Assembly (NCBI GenBank): GCA_020341815.1
Contig: CP070837.1
Location: forward strand, 216,209-280,208
Source of the DNA: Candidatus Omnitrophota bacterium
GTDB lineage: Bacteria; Omnitrophota; Gorgyraeia; JAFGHF01
DNA length: 64,000 bases
Reading direction: 5' to 3'
Below, in pieces: positions 4,065 through 48,051 of the stretch. The translations under genes were made by a program, and so were the position numbers. The notes under the pieces were generated by a model. That model ran no database searches. It saw nothing but the letters and a program-made list of their open reading frames with translations, and was not told the origin of the DNA. Position 1 is the stretch's first letter; each line of letters begins with the position of its first letter.

Positions 4065-4076
4065 GAGTCTTGAGAA

Positions 4077-4190
4077 TGAACCCCGCTCTTCCCAACACCA
4101 CGCCTTGCATAAGAGATATGGGTGAAGGCAATAAAAGGAAGGGCTGGGGATATAACCTTGGCATTACGATGAAAGGAAGGGCGGGGTGAA
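4077..4190. repeat. MITE-like intergenic repeat, copy A (TIR GAACCCCGCYCTTCC ... GGAAGGGCGGGGTGAA)
   Basis: 114 bp, near-perfect 15-bp terminal inverted repeats. Internal TTGCATAAGAGATATGGG core shared with copies B and E. The 3' TIR supplies RBS AGGAAGG and the GTG start of the 4186 gene. Confidence 0.8.
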
Positions 4191-4854: not shown

Positions 4855-5689
4855 AATTGTTATTTTATTATCTTTGTTGATACTGCCTGTTTCGGCTAAG
4901 GCGGAAACTCCCCGGAGGATAATTTCTCTGGCTCCCTCGATAACGGAAAGCTTATATTATCTGGGGGCAGAGAAAGAATTGATAGCGGTGAGCTCCTATT
5001 GCAATTATCCTGAAGGTGCCCGCCAGAAGGAAATAGTCGGTACTTTAACCAATCCCAATATCGAGAAGATATTTTCCCTTTCTCCGGACTTGGTTCTGGC
5101 GGTCGAGGGGTTAAATCGCACCCAGACCATAGAGAAATTGAAAAGTTTAGGAATAAAGATAGAGGTCTTTGATGCGGGTGACAGCTTCGATGATGTTGTA
5201 AAGAACTTTGTTCAATTGGGAAGATTGATAGGCAAGGAAGATAAGGCCGAGGAAATAGTCGAGCAGGTAAAGAAGCAGATAAAATCTATCAATAACAGGC
5301 TTAAAGGGAGATGGCGCCCGCAGGTCTTCTGGCAGGTGGGCGCCAGGCCTTTGGTCGGGGCCGGCGAGAAATCATTTGCCAATGAGTTTATCCGCTACGG
5401 GGGCGGTGAGAATATCTTTTCCGATACCGCCGCCAGATACCCCCGCCTAAGCCGCGAAGAAGTCTTAAGCAGAAATCCGGATGTAGTCATACTGGTTACA
5501 ATGGGGGACATCACAGAGAAAGAAAAGGAATACTGGCAGAAGTTCAAAGATTTATCGGCCGCTAAGGCCAGAAGGATTTACATAGTTGATGCCGATAAGG
5601 TCTGCCGGCCGACGCCGGTGAGTTTTTTAACAGGTTTAAAGCAGGTAGCGAGGGTTCTTCATCCCGAAGTTTTTGCACAGGAGCGTTAA
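4835..5689 (+). CDS. Periplasmic substrate-binding protein, class III (BtuF/FhuD-like) of a cobalamin/siderophore ABC importer
   Basis: 284 aa. Signal peptide, then ISLAPSITE..AVSSYC motif. Followed by FecCD permease and ATPase. Confidence 0.7.
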   Translation: MRFALSRIVILLSLLILPVSAKAETPRRIISLAPSITESLYYLGAEKELIAVSSYCNYPEGARQKEIVGTLTNPNIEKIFSLSPDLVLAVEGLNRTQTIEKLKSLGIKIEVFDAGDSFDDVVKNFVQLGRLIGKEDKAEEIVEQVKKQIKSINNRLKGRWRPQVFWQVGARPLVGAGEKSFANEFIRYGGGENIFSDTAARYPRLSREEVLSRNPDVVILVTMGDITEKEKEYWQKFKDLSAAKARRIYIVDADKVCRPTPVSFLTGLKQVARVLHPEVFAQER

Positions 5690-17317: not shown

Positions 17318-17989
17318 GTGAAGGAAAACCTGAGATATATTTTAACCCTGACTTTGATCTGTTTCGTTACCGCCTCTTTGCTTACGGGCGTTTATCTTTT
17401 GACTCAGCCCAGAATCCTCGAGCAAAAAGAGAAAGAGAAAACAGAGGCCTTAAAAGAGGTAATGCCGGAGGCAGGATATTTTGATGCGGTTAGCGAGGAG
17501 GGTAAGGTTATTTATTATCGGGCTTATCCTTCGTCCAACAAACAGAGACTATTAGGCTTTGCTTTTACGGCCCGGGCTCAAGGGTATTCCGGAGTGATTG
17601 AAACTATGGCCGGCATAGATAGAGAGGGCAAAATTACGGGGGTAAAGATATTGCAGCAGACTGAGACCCCGGGCCTGGGGGCCAGGATTAGCGAAGTCCT
17701 TAAGCAAAAGACTCTTTATGAGGCAACCAAAGATCTTTTTTCCAGAGAAAAGAAAATTGATGAGATACCCGATAAGCCCTGGTTTTGCGCGCAATTTAAG
17801 GGCAAAAGAATTAGTGATTTAATAGTGGTAAAAACTCCCACCGAAAAAAATATTCAGGCCATAACCGGGGCGACGATTTCTTCGGAGGCCCTGACTGATT
17901 CTGTGCGCGAGAAGGCAAAAGAGATTTTAAGATATGAACCCCGCCCTTCCAAACACCACGGCTTGCACAATAGATATGGGCAAAAGTAA
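17318..17989 (+). CDS. rnfG: Rnf complex subunit G (FMN-binding) with repeat-encoded C-terminal extension
   Basis: ITGATISSEALTDSV FMN-binding motif. The last about 18 codons (..EPRPSKHHGLHNRYGQK) lie inside MITE-like copy B. Confidence 0.75.
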   Translation: MKENLRYILTLTLICFVTASLLTGVYLLTQPRILEQKEKEKTEALKEVMPEAGYFDAVSEEGKVIYYRAYPSSNKQRLLGFAFTARAQGYSGVIETMAGIDREGKITGVKILQQTETPGLGARISEVLKQKTLYEATKDLFSREKKIDEIPDKPWFCAQFKGKRISDLIVVKTPTEKNIQAITGATISSEALTDSVREKAKEILRYEPRPSKHHGLHNRYGQK

Positions 17990-18050
17990 TAAAAGAAAAG
18001 GTAGGTATAAAGAGTTGGCATTAGGAAGAGAGAAAGGAAGGGCGGGGTGA
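17935..18050. repeat. MITE-like intergenic repeat, copy B
   Basis: TGAACCCCGCCCTTCC ... GGAAGGGCGGGGTGAA, 116 bp. Internal TTGCACAATAGATATGGGCAAAAGTAATAAAAG core. The 3' TIR gives the GTG start of rnfD at 18047. Confidence 0.85.
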
Positions 18051-18976
18051 ACAATAAACTGATTGTTTCGACCTCGCCTCACATTTATACGCGGGAGAGC
18101 TCTGCTAAGATAATGTGGATGGTAACACTATCTCTCGTTCCCGCAGGCATTGCCGGGGTGTATATCTTTGGGTTGAGCTCCTTATGGGTAATTTTAACCG
18201 GCATTATTTCTGCAGTATTAACAGAGGCAGCAATTCAGAAGTTACGTGGGGCAGCAGTTACTCTTTATGACGGCAGTGCCCTGCTCACGGGCCTGCTTTT
18301 AGCCTATTGCCTGCCGCCGGCAGTTCCTTTGTGGGTGGTGGCTTGCGGCTCCGTGTTTGCCATTGCCATTGGCAAGCAGGCCTTTGGCGGACTGGGACAG
18401 AATATCTTTAATCCTGCGCTTGCCGGACGGGCCTTTTTGCTGGCGGCCTGGCCGACATATATGACTACCTGGACAAATCCCCGAGGCGCGCTTGATGCAA
18501 TAACCTCGGCCACCCCTTTAGATAACGCCTTTGTTGGAGTCACTTACTGGGATTTGTTTATCGGCAGGCGCTCTGGCTGTATCGGCGAGGTCTGTATTAT
18601 TGCACTTTTAGCCGGGGCATTATTTTTGTTGATGTCGGGATATATCAGCTGGCATATCCCTTTTTCCTTTATTGCTACGGCGGGCATATTTACCTGGGCG
18701 TTCGGCGCAGATACTTTATTTAGCGGCCAATGGCTGTTTCATATCTTGTCCGGCGGGCTTATCCTCGGTGCCTTCTTTATGGCCACCGATTATGTCACTT
18801 CTCCCCTGACCAATAAAGGTAAATTAATCTTTGGCTTTGGCTGCGGTCTGTTTACAGGCATAATCCGGCTCTGGGGAGGGTATCCTGAAGGTGTCTGTTA
18901 TGCAATCCTGCTGATGAATGCGGCTTGCCCCTTGATCGACAGATACACAAGACCGAGAAGGTTTGGAACAAAATGA
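18047..18976 (+). CDS. rnfD: Rnf complex subunit D
   Basis: 309 aa polytopic. SPH motif. Both termini lie in repeat copies (GTG start in copy B, TGA stop in copy C). Confidence 0.85.
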   Translation: MNNKLIVSTSPHIYTRESSAKIMWMVTLSLVPAGIAGVYIFGLSSLWVILTGIISAVLTEAAIQKLRGAAVTLYDGSALLTGLLLAYCLPPAVPLWVVACGSVFAIAIGKQAFGGLGQNIFNPALAGRAFLLAAWPTYMTTWTNPRGALDAITSATPLDNAFVGVTYWDLFIGRRSGCIGEVCIIALLAGALFLLMSGYISWHIPFSFIATAGIFTWAFGADTLFSGQWLFHILSGGLILGAFFMATDYVTSPLTNKGKLIFGFGCGLFTGIIRLWGGYPEGVCYAILLMNAACPLIDRYTRPRRFGTK

Positions 18977-19050
18977 ACCCCGCCCTTCCTAAACATCGGA
19001 AGGATGGGGATAGATAAGTGGCATTGGGATGAAAGGAAGAGCGGGGTGAA
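18974..19050. repeat. MITE-like intergenic repeat, copy C (short form)
   Basis: 77 bp: TGAACCCCGCCCTTCC .. GGAAGAGCGGGGTGAA. Supplies the TGA stop of rnfD and RBS + GTG (19046) of rnfE. Confidence 0.85.
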
Positions 19051-19636
19051 AAAATTATTTCAGGAGTTTACGAAAGGTATTCACAGGGAAAATCCTATTT
19101 TCGCTTTGGCCCTGGGGCTCTGCCCGACATTGGCAATTTCTACTTCAGTAAAAACTGGCTTAGGCATGGGTCTGGCGGCGACATTTGTCCTGATAGGCTC
19201 AAATGTGATTATCTCCGCTATCCGCAACGGCATCCCTCACAAAATCAGGATTCCCTGTTTTATCGTGATTATCGCTACTTTTGTAACTATTGTTGAGCTG
19301 GTTATGCAGGCATACTTTCCGCCCCTGAGCAAGCAACTGGGTATCTTTGTGCCTTTGATTGTGGTTAACTGTATTATTATGTGCCGGGCCGAGGGCTTTG
19401 CGGCAAAAAATCCTCCCACCAGGTCCTTATTTGATGCCCTGGGCATGGGCGCAGGCTTTACCCTGGGGCTGGTTTTGATTTCGGCAATCCGTGAAGCTAT
19501 TGGTTCAGGAAGATTATTCGGTTATATATTATTTAAGGGCTATCAGCCGGCATTGACGCTGGCCTTAGCACCGGGAGCGCTTTTGGTCCTGGGGCTTCTT
19601 TTGGGATTATCCAATTTAATTTTTAAAAGGAAATAA
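19046..19636 (+). CDS. rnfE: Rnf complex subunit E (start revised to the repeat-supplied GTG)
   Basis: NPIFALALGLCPTLA motif. GTG 19046 with RBS AGGAAGA 5 nt upstream matches the start position in other repeat copies. ATG 19004 from the ORF track lies inside the repeat. Confidence 0.75.
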   Translation: MKKLFQEFTKGIHRENPIFALALGLCPTLAISTSVKTGLGMGLAATFVLIGSNVIISAIRNGIPHKIRIPCFIVIIATFVTIVELVMQAYFPPLSKQLGIFVPLIVVNCIIMCRAEGFAAKNPPTRSLFDALGMGAGFTLGLVLISAIREAIGSGRLFGYILFKGYQPALTLALAPGALLVLGLLLGLSNLIFKRK

Positions 19637-25019: not shown

Positions 25020-25119
25020 CGCGGGGTGGAGCAGCCTGGTAGCTCGGCTCGTAAAAACACTTCGTGTTCACGAGCCGGCACGTGGGCCGATGAAATCGGC
25101 CTTTACGTGCCGCAAGGCT
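25020..25119 (+). pseudogene. Pseudo 5' half of tRNA-fMet (acceptor + D arm) with 66-nt double-hairpin insertion, then anticodon-stem 5' strand CAAGGCT
   Basis: CGCGGGGTGGAGCAGCCTGGTAGCTCG is identical (except 1 nt) to exon 1 at 25390. It is followed by two perfect hairpins (25047..25075 and 25076..25112), then CAAGGCT, then the GIY-YIG ORF. Confidence 0.6.
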
Positions 25120-25131
25120 CATTTGGATTAA

Positions 25132-25470
25132 ATGTATTACGTTTACCTTCTGATTAGCACAAAGGATAATAATCAATATATCGGATTCACTGAAGATATC
25201 GATAAAAGACTAAAAGAACATAATGCTGGTAAAGTAGTATCTACAAAGAATAGAAGACCATTAAAGTTAATTTATTTTGAGGCTTATCTAGATAAAAGAG
25301 ATGCTCAAGGTAGAGAGCAATTTCTTAAAAGTGGAGCAGGTAAGAGATTTTTACGAAAACAATTGAAACACCATTTGGAAACAAGTAATCGCGGGGTGGA
25401 GCAGCCCGGTAGCTCGCAAGGCTCAAAATGGACACAAAGCTCAAAGCCGACATTGCGGAGTCAGCTGTAG
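25132..25470 (+). CDS. GIY-YIG nuclease superfamily protein, YhbQ/UPF0213-like; C-terminal about 30 aa read through tRNA exon 1
   Basis: YYVYLLISTKDNNQYIGFTEDIDKRLKEHNAGK matches the YhbQ-type GIY-YIG signature. The ORF continues through the tRNA 5' exon (..NRGVEQPGSS..) to a stop at 25470. Confidence 0.65.
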   Translation: MYYVYLLISTKDNNQYIGFTEDIDKRLKEHNAGKVVSTKNRRPLKLIYFEAYLDKRDAQGREQFLKSGAGKRFLRKQLKHHLETSNRGVEQPGSSQGSKWTQSSKPTLRSQL

Positions 25471-26060
25471 TAACTAAACTTCTGGAAAGAGGTTTTAGAG
25501 TACTGCGGCCTGTGGGAGATCGACTTTCCTACGATTTAGGCGTCGATCTCGACGGAAAGTTCATTCGCATCCAGGTGAAGAGTGCTTGGTTCAACAAGAA
25601 AGGCAGTTGCTATACTGTTGATGTGCGTCGAACCAAGACAAATCGCCGACATATGTTGAGACAACGTTATGATGCAAATGACTTTGATTTCGCAATTATC
25701 TACATCGCTGATTTGAATGTGTTCTACGTAATGCCTGTATCTGCATTCTCTCGTTACGGAAGTAGCGTAACATTTGTAGAATCAGATAAAAGGCAGCGTA
25801 AACCAAAATCAGCGAATTATAGAGAGCAATGGGATTTGTTGTTCAATGGGTCCCTCAGGCGGCAACGTCTGATGGAAAACCTGTCAAATTCGGTGGAGCC
25901 CTCGACATTAGATCAAGGTAATACCGAGCCAAGTCTCCCGATGGCCATCGGGGGAAAGGTGTAGAGACTAGGTGGCAGGAATCCTGAGGAATCAGGATTA
26001 AGGTATAGTCCAGACTACAAATGCCGTAAGTTCGGCAGCAGTGAAAACTGTAGTAGTAAG
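25424..26060 (+). mobile_element. Group I intron (IC3/Azoarcus-like core) in the tRNA-fMet anticodon loop, between U33 and C34
   Basis: Core-like motifs: GUCAAAUUCGG (25882..25892); GGUGUAGAGACUAGGUGGCAG (P7/P3'); hairpin AAUCCUGAGGAAUCAGGAUU (P8-like); GGUAUAGUCC (P7 3' strand); P9-like hairpins. The last intron nucleotide is G and the last exon nucleotide is U. Confidence 0.6.
25428..25964 (+). CDS. Intron-encoded ORF, 178 aa, possible PD-(D/E)xK-like endonuclease
   Basis: Starts 5 nt after the 5' splice site and ends inside the intron core. Loose GVDLDGKF..IRIQVKS D..(E/Q)xK-like pattern. The nuclease assignment is weak. Confidence 0.4.
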   Translation: MDTKLKADIAESAVVTKLLERGFRVLRPVGDRLSYDLGVDLDGKFIRIQVKSAWFNKKGSCYTVDVRRTKTNRRHMLRQRYDANDFDFAIIYIADLNVFYVMPVSAFSRYGSSVTFVESDKRQRKPKSANYREQWDLLFNGSLRRQRLMENLSNSVEPSTLDQGNTEPSLPMAIGGKV

Positions 26061-26111
26061 CATAACCTTGAGGTCGGCCGTTCGAATCGGCCCCCCGCTA
26101 CCATTTAAGAG

Positions 26112-38087: not shown

Positions 38088-38556
38088 GACAATTCTTTTG
38101 GTCTGCACAGGCAACAGCTGCCGCAGCGTAATGGCTGCGGGCCTCCTGAAGAAGATGTTAAAAGACAAAGGCGATTACAGGATAATGACTGCGGGAACAA
38201 TGGCAATAAGAGGAATACGCCCCAGCCCCGGGGCAGTTGAGGTTATGGCAGAGGAAGGTATTGATATAAGCGGGCATTATGGGCAGCCATTGAGTGATGA
38301 AATGTTGCGTCAGGCCGATTTAATTTTGGTGATGGAGGAGAGGCAAAAGGAAAATATCTTAATGCATTACGGTGATGTTGAGCACAAAGTACATTTATTA
38401 AGTGAATTTGGCAGGATTGCCAACGAAAATAAATTGGTTGACCCGAATATTCCCGACCCCATCGGCAAGTCTTTGGATTTCTACCGCAAGGTTTATAGTA
38501 TTATTAAAGAAGGCATTACGCGCACAGTAAAGAAATTAGAAGAGGAGGAAAAGTGA
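38074..38556 (+). CDS. Low-molecular-weight protein-tyrosine phosphatase
   Basis: VCTGNSCRS P-loop (CX5R). DP motif near the C-terminus. TGA stop lies in repeat copy D. Confidence 0.8.
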   Translation: MSAIKTILLVCTGNSCRSVMAAGLLKKMLKDKGDYRIMTAGTMAIRGIRPSPGAVEVMAEEGIDISGHYGQPLSDEMLRQADLILVMEERQKENILMHYGDVEHKVHLLSEFGRIANENKLVDPNIPDPIGKSLDFYRKVYSIIKEGITRTVKKLEEEEK

Positions 38557-38630
38557 ACCCCGCCCTTACAAAACATCAGAAGGACGGGGCTAACGCTTTG
38601 ACATTACGAAGAAAGGAAGGGCGGGGTGAA
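38554..38630. repeat. MITE-like intergenic repeat, copy D (short form)
   Basis: 77 bp: TGAACCCCGCCCTTAC ... GGAAGGGCGGGGTGAA. Its internal CTAACGCTTTGACATTACGAAGAAA segment is shared with copy E. Supplies the stop of the PTP gene and RBS/GTG of rpiB. Confidence 0.85.
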
Positions 38631-46177: not shown

Positions 46178-46495
46178 ATGCTTAAATTCGAAGATTTCAA
46201 AAAGATGGATATTAGAATCGCCACTATTGTTGAGGCGGAAAAAGTATCCGGCGCGGATAAGCTTTTGAAATTGATTGTTGATTTGGGTGAAGAAAAAAGA
46301 CAGCTCATTGCCGGCATAGCCTTGCAATATGAAGCACAGGATGTAATAGGAAAGCAGGTTCCGGTGCTCTGCAATCTTGAGCCGGCAAAAATCAGAGGGG
46401 TGGAAAGTAACGGTATGGTCTTATGCGCGACGGCGCCTGATCCGGTTTTGCTTTCGCCGCTAAAAAAGGTGCCCGCCGGCAGTAAAATAAGGTGA
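46178..46495 (+). CDS. tRNA-binding domain protein (CsaA/Trbp111/MetRS C-terminal-like)
   Basis: 105 aa. FKKMDIRIATIVEAEKV..ADKLLKL.VDLGEE.RQ..AGI motif. Confidence 0.7.
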   Translation: MLKFEDFKKMDIRIATIVEAEKVSGADKLLKLIVDLGEEKRQLIAGIALQYEAQDVIGKQVPVLCNLEPAKIRGVESNGMVLCATAPDPVLLSPLKKVPAGSKIR

Positions 46496-46501
46496 GCATG
46501 A

Positions 46502-46616
46502 TGAACCCCGCCCTTCCAAACACTAAGCTTTGCATAAGAGATATGGGCGAGGGTAATAGGAAAGGAAGGACGGGGCTAACGCTTTGATATTACGAAGAAA
46601 GGAAGGGCGGGGTGAA
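46502..46616. repeat. MITE-like intergenic repeat, copy E (composite: A/B-type core plus D-type segment)
   Basis: TGAACCCCGCCCTTCC..TTGCATAAGAGATATGGGCGAGGG..GGAAGGACGGGGCTAACGCTTTGATATTACGAAGAAAGGAAGGGCGGGGTGAA. Supplies the GTG start of cutA. Confidence 0.85.
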
Positions 46617-46926: not shown

Positions 46927-46927
46927 A

Positions 46928-47160
46928 TGAACCCCGTATTATCATATTCACGGTATAATAATATTAAACAATTGAATTAATTCAACGTCAATTATCGGGC
47001 GGCCAGCCAGCCGCCCCTACAGGACATTTAAATAGCGACAGCGCCTATATATTGTACCCGTAGGGGCCGACGGCTGTCGGCCCGATAATAATACAAAATA
47101 AGGGAAACATATTTGGTGAATATAAAAATATCGTAGGGGCGGGGTGACCCCGCCCGAAAC
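46928..47160. repeat. Degenerate repeat-end / GC-palindrome cluster
   Basis: 5' TIR remnant TGAACCCCG (46928). Hairpins GGGCGGC-CAGCCAG-CCGCCC and GGGCCGAC-GGCT-GTCGGCCC enclosed by TTATCGGGC/GCCCGATAA. Abutting TIR pair GGGCGGGGTGACCCCGCCC at 47137..47155. Confidence 0.6.
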
Positions 47161-47193
47161 GTCTAAACAAAGATTGGAGGGATTTCTAACGGG

Positions 47194-48051
47194 GTGAAAA
47201 AAGAGTCGATGCATTGCGAGATACTGGAGGCGGGTAAGGTCAGGTGTCTTCTCTGTCCTCATGTTTGTCTGCTTAAGAAGGGCGAAGTGGGCCGCTGCGG
47301 CGTAAGGCAGAATGAGTATGGCCGGCTCTATTCTTTAATCTACGGCGAGGTCACGTCTTGTGCCTTAGACCCCATTGAGAAAAAGCCCCTTTATCATTTC
47401 CATCCGGGTGAACATATTCTTTCTTTAGGCACAAAGGGATGTAATCTCAAGTGTCCCTGGTGCCAGAACTGGGCGATTTCTCAAGAGTATGCAAGTTGTC
47501 CCACAGAAAAGTTAAGCCCTCAGGAGGCAGTTAGCCGGGCGAAGGAATTGAACTCCTTTGGCATCGCCTATACCTATAATGAACCGTTTATCTGGTATGA
47601 GTTTGTCTATGATACCGCACTTCTTGGGCACAAGGAAGGCCTGAAGAATGTCCTGGTGACCAACGGATATGTTAATCAGAAGCCCCTGGAGGAAATTATT
47701 TCACTTATCGATGCAATGAATATCGATGTTAAGTCAATGGACGATAATTTTTATAAGAAATACTGCGACGGAAGGCTCTCGCCCGTATTGCGCACGGCAG
47801 AGTTTTCGGCTGCGAGGTGCCACGTCGAAATTACCAATTTGATTATCCCCACACTTAATGACAGCCGGGAGAATTTCCAAAAATTGACGGACTGGGTGGC
47901 CGAGAAGTTAGGAAAGGACACCCCGCTTCACTTTTCCCGTTATTTTCCCGCCTATAAAATGGATATCCCGCCTACGCCGATAGAGACGCTGAAGGCGGCC
48001 GAAGAAATTGCCAGGAAGAAATTGCGTTATGTATATCTGGGTAATACTTAA
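47194..48051 (+). CDS. AmmeMemoRadiSam-system radical SAM enzyme (PflA-like activase family)
   Basis: 285 aa, GTG start within a GGGGTGAA motif. CNLKCPWCQN radical SAM motif. N-terminal C..C..C..C cluster typical of this family. Confidence 0.7.
   Translation: MKKESMHCEILEAGKVRCLLCPHVCLLKKGEVGRCGVRQNEYGRLYSLIYGEVTSCALDPIEKKPLYHFHPGEHILSLGTKGCNLKCPWCQNWAISQEYASCPTEKLSPQEAVSRAKELNSFGIAYTYNEPFIWYEFVYDTALLGHKEGLKNVLVTNGYVNQKPLEEIISLIDAMNIDVKSMDDNFYKKYCDGRLSPVLRTAEFSAARCHVEITNLIIPTLNDSRENFQKLTDWVAEKLGKDTPLHFSRYFPAYKMDIPPTPIETLKAAEEIARKKLRYVYLGNT

What the first reader, a model, noticed from the sequence alone, without database searches (positions are those of the whole stretch)
4077..4190. Family of MITE-like elements with GC-rich terminal inverted repeats that deliver both a stop codon and an RBS + GTG start to flanking genes
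Five full copies in 64 kb: 4077..4190, 17935..18050, 18974..19050, 38554..38630, 46502..46616. Remnants at 46928 and 47137..47155. All share termini (A/G)TGAACCCCGCCCTTCC ... GGAAGGGCGGGGTGAA, 13-15 bp perfect inverted repeats.

A 4-bp TGAA repeat sits at both ends, consistent with a target-site duplication. Long forms (about 115 bp) carry a conserved core TTGCA(T/C)AA(G/T)AGATATGGG. Short forms (77 bp) carry a different interior. Copy E is a chimera of the two, which implies recombination between family members.

In four cases the upstream gene ends at the TGA of the 5' end (rnfD, LMW-PTP, the CsaA-like gene; RnfG reads 18 codons into the element). In every case the downstream gene starts at the GTG inside the 3' TIR, 5 nt after an AGGAAGG Shine-Dalgarno. 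This applies to the Dph6-like gene, rnfD, rnfE, rpiB and cutA.

In a transcript the two TIRs would form a 13-15 bp GC helix that juxtaposes the upstream stop and downstream start while sequestering the SD. The element could therefore couple or gate translation of the downstream gene, and it has visibly shaped protein termini.
Basis: seen in the sequence. Interest (0 to 1): 0.85.

Follow-up and report, generated by a model that had tools for sequence, protein, structure and literature searches.

The report
Start-codon-targeting mini transposon with built-in ribosome site
A small mobile DNA element, found across Omnitrophota-type bacteria, inserts exactly at gene start codons and rebuilds a ribosome-binding site and a GTG start, so the interrupted gene stays expressed; it is a new family of a known kind of bacterial repeat.

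Summary
The repeats are real. There are five family-1 copies plus a sixth, degenerate family-2 copy at 46927-47198, all on the + strand.

Relatives of the rnf operon show empty sites: a bare overlapping stop/start ATGAA or GTGAA where the window has TGAA-[element]-TGAA. Filled contigs are scattered on the RnfD tree, each next to an empty relative. This is an insertion with a 4-bp TGAA duplication, so it is MITE-like.

The same termini occur in at least 23 assemblies, 14 of them labelled Omnitrophota, with unrelated interiors. Every copy is sense to the downstream gene.

The stop TGA and the TG of the start come from the duplicated target. The element supplies only the Shine-Dalgarno sequence and the G of GTG. 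The left ATG behaves like the orphaned ancestral start codon.

New result: stop codons are depleted 2.5-fold in the frame of that ATG (28 seen, 70 expected). This implies a short relay ORF is read through the element.

The predicted arm1:arm3 helix buries the ribosome site. An inner arm2 offers an alternative pairing. Gating of translation is inferred, not shown.

No transposase partner was found. The closest known analogues are mycobacterial MIRUs and Neisseria REP2.

The parts
4076..4190 (+). Element A, long form, between a radical SAM/SPASM gene and a diphthamide-synthase-like gene
   Evidence: Layout: ATG 4076-4078; left TGAA 4077-4080; arm1 4080-4092 (one G.T pair against arm3); arm2 4137-4149; arm3 4175-4187; GTG start 4186-4188; right TGAA 4187-4190. 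The ATG frame is open for 37 codons and ends at TGA 4187-4189, overlapping the GTG. AGGAG lies 9 nt upstream of the ATG. The Pfam Diphthami_syn_2 match starts at residue 1.
17934..18051 (+). Element B, long form, at the rnfG/rnfD junction
   Evidence: Perfect 13-bp arms at 17938-17950 and 18036-18048; GTG 18047-18049. The mini-ORF is 38 codons and ends at the GTGA overlap. RnfG (17318-17989) reads 18 codons into the element. The RnfD start matches a public gene call and the N-termini of orthologues. The same junction is a bare ATGAA or GTGAA in most relatives.
18973..19050 (+). Element C, short form, at the rnfD/rnfE junction
   Evidence: The rnfD stop is the element's TGA at 18974-18976. Arm1 18977-18989; arm2 18998-19009; arm3 19035-19047 (one C.A mismatch); GTG 19046-19048. 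The Rnf-Nqr domain starts at residue 5. The site is empty (AAAATGAAG...) in L119-L122 and others, and filled in L125 and L127. The public contig L118 ends at this repeat.
38553..38630 (+). Element D, short form, at the LMW-PTP/rpiB junction
   Evidence: The left end is GTGAA. The LMW-PTP stop is the element's TGA at 38554-38556. Arm1 38557-38569; arm2 38578-38589; arm3 38615-38627; GTG 38626-38628. The RpiB domain starts at residue 3.
46501..46616 (+). Element E, long form, between a CsaA-like tRNA_bind gene and cutA
   Evidence: The upstream stop TGA 46493-46495 lies 9 nt before the element's TGA. Arms are perfect: arm1 46505-46517; arm2 46564-46575; arm3 46601-46613; GTG 46612-46614. The CutA1 domain starts at residue 5. 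The 3' half is nearly identical to D, and the 5' interior resembles A and B.
46927..47198 (+). Element F, a degenerate or interrupted member of a variant family (family 2), between cutA and a radical SAM gene
   Evidence: It starts ATGAACCCCGT at 46927 and ends GGAGGGATTTCTAACGGGGTGAA at 47198. The GTG at 47194-47196 opens a 285-aa radical SAM ORF. The 3' end matches L125:7160-7216 and a copy in L090, where the arms ACCCCGTTAGAA and TTCTAACGGGGT are complementary. The interior holds other palindromes, including GTAGGGGCGGGGTGACCCCGCCC at 47133-47155.

Best explanation
This is a family of short (53-135 nt), non-autonomous, MITE-like mobile elements. It is widespread in Omnitrophota-type genomes.

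Insertion
- The element inserts at the TGAA of a gene's start codon, NTG-AA. In these compact operons that start often overlaps the upstream stop as ATGA.
- Insertion duplicates the TGAA.

What each end carries afterwards
- The left copy keeps the upstream stop (TGA) and the orphaned ancestral ATG with its original ribosome-binding context.
- The right inverted repeat ends in ...AAAGGAAGGGCGGGG. It supplies a Shine-Dalgarno sequence and a final G. That G, with the duplicated TG, makes a new GTG start at the gene's native N-terminus.

Proposed expression route (inferred)
- Ribosomes that start, or restart, at the orphaned ATG read a short ORF through the element. Its stop codons have been purged.
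- This melts the 13-bp GC helix between the two repeats, which would otherwise bury the new ribosome site.
- The ribosomes arrive at the GTG, often through a GTGA stop/start overlap.
- The element is therefore a self-repairing insertion that keeps, and probably enforces, translational coupling.

Status of each step
- Shown: the insertion polymorphism, the TGAA duplication, the sense-only orientation, the start positions and the stop-codon depletion.
- Inferred: the relay and the helix gating.
- Unknown: the transposase.
For: 1. Empty versus filled sites. In relatives with 59-69% RnfD identity, the rnfG/rnfD and rnfD/rnfE junctions are a bare ATGAA or GTGAA. In the window, L123, L125 and L127 they read TGAA-[element]-TGAA. 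L125 and L121 align at 71-77% nt identity, with breaks exactly at three of the four L125 elements; the fourth lies inside an aligned block.

2. Patchy occupancy. Filled contigs are scattered on the RnfD tree, each next to an empty relative. Only 3 of 80 rnfD contigs (789 kb) carry copies, and L125 has 4 in 12 kb.

3. Breadth and family structure. Full elements occur in 23 assemblies, 14 of them labelled Omnitrophota. The termini are near-identical, the interiors are unrelated between genomes, and they are similar within a genome.

4. Specificity of the flank. TGAA-arm...arm-TGAA pairs number 36, against 0-6 for control flanks.

5. Orientation. Every real copy is sense. The GTG opens a long ORF in about 35 of 38 copies. 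Pfam domains start at residue 1-7.

6. The left end looks like a start codon. It is ATG in 36 and GTG in 5 of 43 copies. An SD-like 4-mer lies upstream in 20 of 43, compared with 27 of 50 native starts and 15% of random ATGs.

7. Stop depletion in the ATG frame. There are 28 stops against 70.4 +/- 7.6 in interior shuffles (0 of 2000 shuffles as low). 24 of 43 copies are fully open, against 11.2 +/- 2.5 expected. The other two frames sit at their null. Frame 0 is the lowest frame in 14 of 24 genome groups and never the highest.

8. The helix. 97% of cells are paired, with compensatory variants in L127 and in family 2. The SD+GTG stretch has an unpaired probability of 0.11, against 0.57 at native starts.
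Against: - No autonomous element with these termini, and no transposase, was found in the roughly 2.5 Mb held.
- A single-strand transposon with a fixed TGAA target would leave the same footprint as a true duplication.
- Repeat complementarity and the arm1/arm2/arm3 co-variation would equally follow from three copies of one protein-binding site. The mismatch pattern does not favour RNA pairing: both U.G and C.A cells occur, and arm3 was fixed by the search.
- The preference for the frame that ends at the GTGA overlap (20:14:9) is not significant.
- 19 of 43 copies do have a stop in the ATG frame.
- There are no expression data, so neither the relay nor the gating has been observed.
- The window's taxon is inferred only from where the element occurs.
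Confidence: 0.7

Rival explanations
1. It is a neutral selfish MITE with no effect on expression. The repeats exist only for a transposase. Copies are seen at start codons only because other insertions are lethal in a gene-dense genome. In the cell, the helix is kept harmless because arm1 is captured by the nearby arm2.
For: - It shows target duplication, patchy occupancy and within-genome families.
- In 36 of 43 copies arm1 can pair locally, mostly with arm2, before arm3 is transcribed. The median energy is -17.5 kcal/mol. That would leave the ribosome site free.
- Solo arm3 copies serve as ribosome sites without arm1.
Against: - Stop-codon depletion in the ATG frame shows selection on translation through the element.
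- No copy was seen in non-start intergenic DNA or in antisense, even though the window has about 2.5 kb of such DNA, holding by my estimate about as many TGAA/TTCA sites as there are NTGAA starts.
- The full-length fold still favours arm1:arm3, by a median of about 14 kcal/mol.
Confidence: 0.3
2. It is a host-evolved cis-regulatory RNA, a translational switch or coupler, inherited vertically rather than a mobile insertion.
For: - The three-arm layout, with two mutually exclusive pairings, is conserved in both sequence families.
- The ribosome site is strongly buried in the predicted fold.
- The termini are conserved across a phylum.
Against: - Close relatives have exact empty sites with a single TGAA.
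- Occupancy does not follow the RnfD tree.
- The flanking genes are functionally unrelated: rnf, rpiB, cutA, uvrC-like, an Rrf2-type regulator and others.
- There is no Rfam match even at E<=1.
Confidence: 0.1
3. It is a derivative of a single-strand, HUH-type transposon (REP/REPIN-RAYT or an IS200/IS605 PATE). Such an element would insert 3' of a fixed TGAA target and itself end in TGAA, so the 'duplication' would only be apparent.
For: - The flank is always the same tetranucleotide.
- A strong arm1:arm2 hairpin starts one base after the left TGAA.
- GTAG-headed palindromes, typical of REPs, lie inside element F.
Against: - There is no hairpin at the right end, and no GTAG at the ends of the element.
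- Orientation follows the flanking gene in every copy, across many contigs.
- No Y1 transposase gene was seen, although this was not searched systematically.
Confidence: 0.12
4. The mini-ORF encodes a functional small protein, MNPALP...KGRAG.
For: The ATG frame is kept open. A and B encode similar peptides of 37 and 38 aa.
Against: - Only the residues encoded by the arms are conserved.
- Interiors, lengths (9-42 codons) and reading frames at the 3' end all differ between genomes.
Confidence: 0.03

Closest known systems
Mycobacterial interspersed repetitive units (MIRUs; Supply et al. 1997, as reviewed in PMC3184786)
   Same: Both are 40-100 bp repeats found inside polycistronic operons. Both show empty versus filled sites with tetranucleotide direct repeats. 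Both have GC-rich internal inverted repeats and small ORFs whose ends overlap the flanking genes. That MIRUs share the orientation of their flanking genes is from my own memory.
   Different: MIRUs have only imperfect terminal repeats and often occur as tandem arrays (VNTRs). They belong to a different phylum and share no sequence with this family. Here the 13-bp terminal repeat itself holds the SD and completes the start codon, and copies are single.
Neisseria REP2 repeats (PMC3184786)
   Same: [quoted passage not shown]
   Different: REP2 has no terminal inverted repeats and carries its own promoter and ATG. No target duplication or relay ORF has been described for it.
Classical bacterial MITEs (Correia/CREE, RUP, Nezha, ERIC; PMC3184786, PMC10969869)
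   Same: They are small, have terminal inverted repeats and a target duplication, occur in many copies, fold into a long stem in RNA, and are co-transcribed with flanking genes.
   Different: Those families occur in both orientations and mostly in intergenic DNA. The 2024 review's text has no hit for 'start codon', 'stop codon', 'ribosome binding' or 'Shine', so it describes no MITE that regenerates an SD and a start codon.
Structure-opened translational coupling and synthetic bicistronic designs (secM-secA; MS2 coat-replicase; Mutalik et al. 2013 BCD) - from my own knowledge
   Same: A short upstream ORF contains the SD of the next gene and ends in a stop/start overlap. Translating it unwinds the structure over the downstream ribosome site.
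   Different: Those are single fixed loci or engineered parts, not a mobile, multi-copy cassette. The resemblance is to how they work, not to any family membership.

Membership tests
MITE (non-autonomous inverted-repeat transposon) | Small size with no transposase gene | tested here: met
   The elements are 53-135 nt, and 272 nt for F. The only ORF is a non-conserved mini-ORF.
MITE (non-autonomous inverted-repeat transposon) | Terminal inverted repeats | tested here: met
   The arms ACCCCGCCCTTCC and GGAAGGGCGGGGT are 13 bp long. 97% of cells are paired over 48 CM matches, a few of which are antisense or half-truncated duplicates.
MITE (non-autonomous inverted-repeat transposon) | Target-site duplication, shown by empty versus filled sites | tested here: met
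   Filled sites have TGAA on both sides and empty relatives have a single NTGAA. A fixed target plus an element-borne TGAA cannot be excluded.
MITE (non-autonomous inverted-repeat transposon) | Multiple dispersed copies forming within-genome families | tested here: met
   There are 6 copies in the window and 4 in L125. The held loci of assemblies JAZDHS and JAUWBJ hold 5 and 5 copies with similar interiors.
MITE (non-autonomous inverted-repeat transposon) | A cognate autonomous IS or transposase sharing the termini | tested here: inconclusive
   No arm pair 300-5000 nt apart encloses a candidate in the held sequence. Whole genomes could not be scanned.
MIRU-type intercistronic repeat | Lies between cistrons of an operon, in the same sense as the genes, with a small ORF overlapping the flanking stop and start | tested here: met
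   All copies are sense. The element's TGA is the upstream stop in 14 of 38. In the 38 copies the mini-ORF ends at the GTGA overlap in 11. The ATG frame is depleted of stops. Some copies sit at the first gene of a transcription unit instead.
MIRU-type intercistronic repeat | Sequence homology to MIRUs, or tandem VNTR arrays | tested here: not met
   Copies are single and never tandem. The sequence is unrelated and the phylum is different, so this is an analogue and not a member.
REP/REPIN-RAYT | REP hairpin headed by GTAG, present in both orientations, with an associated RAYT gene | tested here: not met
   The element ends are NTGAA, not GTAG, and orientation is strictly sense. The presence of a RAYT gene was not tested.
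Curated structured RNA family (Rfam) | A match to any Rfam 15 covariance model | tested here: not met
   There are no hits on the elements at gathering threshold over the whole window, and none at E<=1 over 17800-19200.
Integron attC site | R''/R' core sites (RYYYAAC...GTTRRRY) next to cassette genes and an integrase | tested here: not met
   The ends are TGAACCCC...GGGGTGAA. The hosts are core operon genes such as rnfG-D-E.

The most novel reading that the evidence does not exclude
The element is more than a tolerated parasite. It would be a phylum-wide, mobile 'bicistronic design' switch.

- Three co-varying arms would let the mRNA toggle between two states. In arm1:arm2 the ribosome site is free. 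In arm1:arm3 it is sequestered.
- Downstream genes would then be translated only when ribosomes arrive from the upstream cistron or the relay ORF. That would give the host strict control of stoichiometry within operons.
- Its exclusive presence at start codons would reflect either true start-codon-directed integration by an unknown recombinase or positive selection for the coupling it imposes.
Probability: 0.2. Interest if true: 0.8.

Novelty: new variant of a known kind. Interest (0 to 1): 0.6.

Why it matters
- It shows how a mobile element can colonise an almost gap-free genome. It lands on the start codon, carries the parts needed to rebuild translation initiation, and keeps a relay reading frame open.
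- It affects annotation of Omnitrophota genomes. GTG starts sit inside repeats, ORFs are extended (RnfG), spurious mini-genes may be called, and assemblies break at copies.
- It offers a natural counterpart to engineered bicistronic translation-initiation cassettes.
- If the helix really gates initiation, it would be a portable device for obligatory translational coupling.

Tried and rejected
- **Viral origin.** Exact 3' arm hits in IMG/VR were 15 chance matches without arm1. Family 2 gave two plausible copies on one viral-flagged contig, L219, and otherwise chance hits.
- **Autonomous copy.** Arm pairs 300-5000 nt apart were either neighbouring small elements or high-GC chance matches.
- **Rfam.** There were no matches.
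- **Literature.** No paper in the library holds the arm sequence in a bacterial-repeat context, and none links Omnitrophota with such repeats.
- **Taxonomic placement by tblastn.** Searching window proteins against the MAG loci gave only weak hits of 44% identity or less. The blastn search found nothing. The window's genome was not among the fetched loci.
- **RNA versus DNA constraint from mismatch types.** This was inconclusive, partly because arm3 was fixed by the search pattern.
- **Preference for the reading frame that ends at GTGA.** The 20:14:9 split is not significant.
- **Solo GGGCGGGG sites in the window** (345, 5859, 22242, 58326). They lie inside coding sequence and are chance.
- **L068:1533-1640.** This apparent copy is chance: GGAGF Rossmann motifs encode the arm-like sequence.
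- **Functional small peptide.** Rejected, because only the arm-encoded residues are conserved.

Full report
**1. Observation**

Reading the five sites and aligning them confirms a repeat with these termini: (A/G)TGAACCCCGCCCTTCC ... AAAGGAAGGGCGGGGTGAA.

- The 5' 15-mer with up to 3 mismatches hits 13 times against 2.2 expected, and 0 of 100 shuffles reach 13.
- Exact TGAACCCCG and exact CGGGGTGAA each occur six times, all on the + strand.
- The sixth pair bounds 46927-47198. This is a longer, degenerate copy of a variant family.
- Nearly every gene in the window is on the + strand and the genes are tightly packed.

- Downstream genes are Diphthami_syn_2, RnfD, Rnf-Nqr (RnfE), RpiB, CutA1 and a radical SAM protein.
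- Upstream genes include a radical SAM/SPASM protein, RnfG, LMW-PTP and a tRNA_bind (CsaA-like) protein.

Each downstream protein read from the GTG matches its Pfam profile from position 1-2 at residue 1-7. A public gene call uses exactly the GTG start for RnfD. Orthologous RnfD and RnfE begin at the aligned position. The GTG starts are therefore credible.

Four details in the finding are wrong.
- Only rnfD (copy C) and LMW-PTP (copy D) stop at the element's TGA. At A the stop lies 13 nt upstream of the element's ATG, and at E 9 nt before the element's TGA. RnfG reads into B.
- Only B and E have perfect 13-bp arms.
- The 'remnants' at 46928 and 47137-47155 belong to the sixth element.
- Copy B ends at 18051, not 18050.

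**2. Distribution**

- 34 of the loci also had the 5' arm within 220 nt.
- Those 34 come from 23 assemblies. Fourteen are labelled Omnitrophota or Omnitrophica. The rest are unclassified or carry doubtful automatic labels.
- The remaining loci are chance matches in high-GC genomes and lack arm1.
- Across genomes the termini ATGAACCCCGCCCTTCCTAA and AAAGGAAGGGCGGGGTGAA are almost invariant. The interiors are about 15-95 nt and unrelated.
- Within a genome the interiors are similar, for example L018/L044/L046/L107 and window copies A, B and E.

A generic search for TGAA-arm...complementary arm-TGAA found 36 pairs, against 0-6 for control flanks. Nearly all belong to this family. Variants have co-changed arms: CCCCGCACTTT with AAGGTGCGGGG, and CCCCGTTAGAA with TTCTAACGGGG.

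**3. It is an insertion**

A metagenome scan with RnfD returned 80 rnf loci.

- In most relatives with 59-69% RnfD identity, the rnfG/rnfD and rnfD/rnfE junctions are a bare overlapping stop/start ATGAA or GTGAA.
- In the window, L123, L125 and L127 the same junctions read TGAA-[element]-TGAA.
- L125 and its close relative L121 align at 71-77% nt identity. The alignment breaks exactly at three of the four L125 elements, and the fourth lies inside an aligned block.
- On an RnfD tree the filled contigs are scattered. Each sits next to an empty one: L125 with L121, L123 with L144, L127 with L134.
- A covariance model built from short forms found elements in only 3 of the 80 contigs (789 kb). L125 has four in 12 kb, one at every rnf junction.

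This combination of target duplication, patchy occupancy and within-genome families marks a mobile, MITE-like element.

No autonomous partner was found in the sequence held. A single-strand transposon with a fixed TGAA target would leave the same footprint.

**4. What the target is**

- The base before the left TGAA makes an ATG in 36 and a GTG in 5 of 43 copies.
- SD-like 4-mers lie 5-18 nt upstream of that codon in 20 of 43 copies. The figure is 27 of 50 for native starts in the window and 15% for random ATGs.
- At A, AGGAG sits 9 nt upstream of the left ATG.
- Some copies follow promoter-like sequences rather than an upstream gene.

So the target is a gene's own start codon, NTG-AA. The left copy is the orphaned ancestral start, and it also carries the upstream stop where the two overlapped.

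The element therefore does not deliver the stop and the start. It contributes the SD and the terminal G that turns the duplicated TG into GTG.

Most copies also carry TAA just after arm1. Upstream genes that read into the element in the GAA frame end there (two cases). The window's long forms lack that TAA, which is why RnfG runs on for 18 codons.

**5. Orientation**

Orientation was assigned from the flanks alone. Every real copy is then sense to a long ORF opening at the GTG.

Two apparent exceptions were resolved. One is another sense copy (L056:6696). The other is a chance match encoded by GGAGF motifs (L068:1533).

No copy was found in antisense or in non-start intergenic DNA. By my estimate from the gene map, the window's intergenic DNA holds about as many TGAA/TTCA sites as there are NTGAA starts. 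Four NTGAA overlap junctions in the window remain empty.

**6. A reading frame is kept open (new)**

Stops were counted from the left ATG to the GTG in 43 elements.

| Frame | Stops observed | Expected from interior shuffles |
|---|---|---|
| ATG frame | 28 | 70.4 +/- 7.6 (0 of 2000 shuffles as low) |
| Frame 1 | 66 | 68 |
| Frame 2 | 93 | 81 |

- 24 of 43 elements are fully open in the ATG frame, against 11.2 +/- 2.5 expected.
- Grouped by genome, the ATG frame has the fewest stops in 14 of 24 groups and never the most.
- Very AT-rich interiors show it best: L022, L040 and L056 have 0 stops in frame, against 7, 8 and 2 in frame 1 and 2, 4 and 6 in frame 2.

In the 38 copies examined, the open ORF ends in one of three ways:
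- At the TGA overlapping the GTG: 11 copies, including A and B, with peptides MNPALP...KGRAG.
- Fused in frame to the gene: 6 copies.
- 11-74 nt past the GTG: 6 copies.

The 20:14:9 split of reading frames is not significant. Only arm-encoded residues are conserved, so the selected property is translation itself and not a peptide.

**7. RNA structure**

- All five window copies fold with arm1 paired to arm3, with z-scores of -3.0 to -5.1.
- Over 48 CM matches (a few of them antisense or half-truncated duplicates) 97% of helix cells pair, and three pairs show double changes.
- The 15-nt SD+GTG stretch has a mean unpaired probability of 0.11, against 0.57 at 38 native starts.
- Most copies also carry an inner arm2, an imperfect copy of arm3. 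It co-varies with arm1 in both sequence families.
- In 36 of 43 copies arm1 can pair locally before arm3 exists, with a median energy of -17.5 kcal/mol. The full fold has a median of -32 kcal/mol.

Two exclusive conformations are therefore possible. However, three copies of one protein-binding site would give the same pattern. The mismatch types do not separate RNA from DNA constraint.

Solo arm3 copies without arm1 serve as ribosome sites in several MAGs.

**8. Mechanism proposed**

*Shown:*
- Insertion at NTGAA starts with TGAA repeated.
- Regeneration of SD plus GTG at the native N-terminus.
- Sense-only orientation.
- An ATG frame purged of stops.

*Inferred:*
- Ribosomes terminating upstream, or initiating at the old ribosome site, start at the left ATG and translate through arm1.
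- This opens the helix and brings them to the GTG, where they reinitiate or new subunits bind the freed SD.
- Arm2 may hold arm1 after passage.

This works like structure-opened coupling (secM-secA, MS2) and like synthetic bicistronic designs. Both comparisons are from my own knowledge.

**9. Comparison with known families**

It meets the structural definition of a MITE, except that no partner transposase is known.

In behaviour it most resembles MIRUs. Those are intercistronic, have tetranucleotide direct repeats and empty/filled sites, and carry small ORFs overlapping the flanking genes (PMC3184786). It is not homologous to MIRUs and is never in tandem arrays.

It also resembles Neisseria REP2, a repeat that carries an RBS and a start (same source).

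A 2024 review of prokaryotic MITEs describes none that regenerates an SD and a start. There is no Rfam match, and no paper in the library holds the sequence in this context.

**10. Verdict**

The feature is real and non-random. It is a new family, and a new variant of a known kind.

The 'delivery' of stop and start is reinterpreted as duplication of the target start codon. The gating idea remains plausible but untested.

Interest is moderate to high for mobile-element and translation specialists, but this is not a new category.

Noticed in passing
window 25022-26103 (+): An initiator-tRNA-like gene is split in its anticodon by a group I intron. The 5' exon is at 25391-25426. The intron core is at 25827-26036 (Rfam, 80.7 bits). 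The 3' exon ends near 26103. The intron carries a PD-(D/E)XK endonuclease ORF at 25428-25964. A partial extra copy of the 5' exon at 25022 is followed by a GIY-YIG ORF at 25132-25470. ARAGORN did not call this tRNA.
   Followed up: partly
window 46990-47160: Inside element F there are further GC-rich palindromes headed by GTAG, which is REP-like. ATTATCGGGCGGCCAGCCAGCCGCCCCTAC faces GTAGGGGCCGACGGCTGTCGGCCCGATAAT. GTAGGGGCGGGGTGACCCCGCCC also looks like an arm3-TGA-arm1 head-to-tail junction.
   Followed up: no
L126:4290-4420 and 5357-5440: A relative carries a different repeat at both rnfD junctions (...GGTAATCCTGAGYGAGCGAAGCGA...GAAGGGTGAGAAA). The stop/start junctions of this operon therefore seem to attract more than one element family.
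   Followed up: no
L219 (IMG/VR UViG_3300038429_000794), two sites about 700 nt apart: Two family-2-like hairpin elements (CCCCGTTAGAAA...TTTCTAACGGGGTGAA) lie on a contig flagged as viral. Their left flanks are not TGAA.
   Followed up: partly
L022:1990-2020 and L083 (upstream of its element): Two copies from different assemblies share a promoter-like stretch, TAATATTGGNCTATNNATGAAC, just upstream. The relay ORF's ATG would then lie close to the 5' end of the transcript.
   Followed up: no
L118 (Logan contig SRR14739666_209013): The only public contig encoding the identical RnfD ends at element C. These repeats therefore break short-read assemblies.
   Followed up: no
L144:6157-6197 and L129:927-982: Other CCCC(A/G)CC...GG(T/C)GGGG hairpins, some with a T-run like an intrinsic terminator, are common in related contigs. 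The arm sequence may have arisen from that pool.
   Followed up: no
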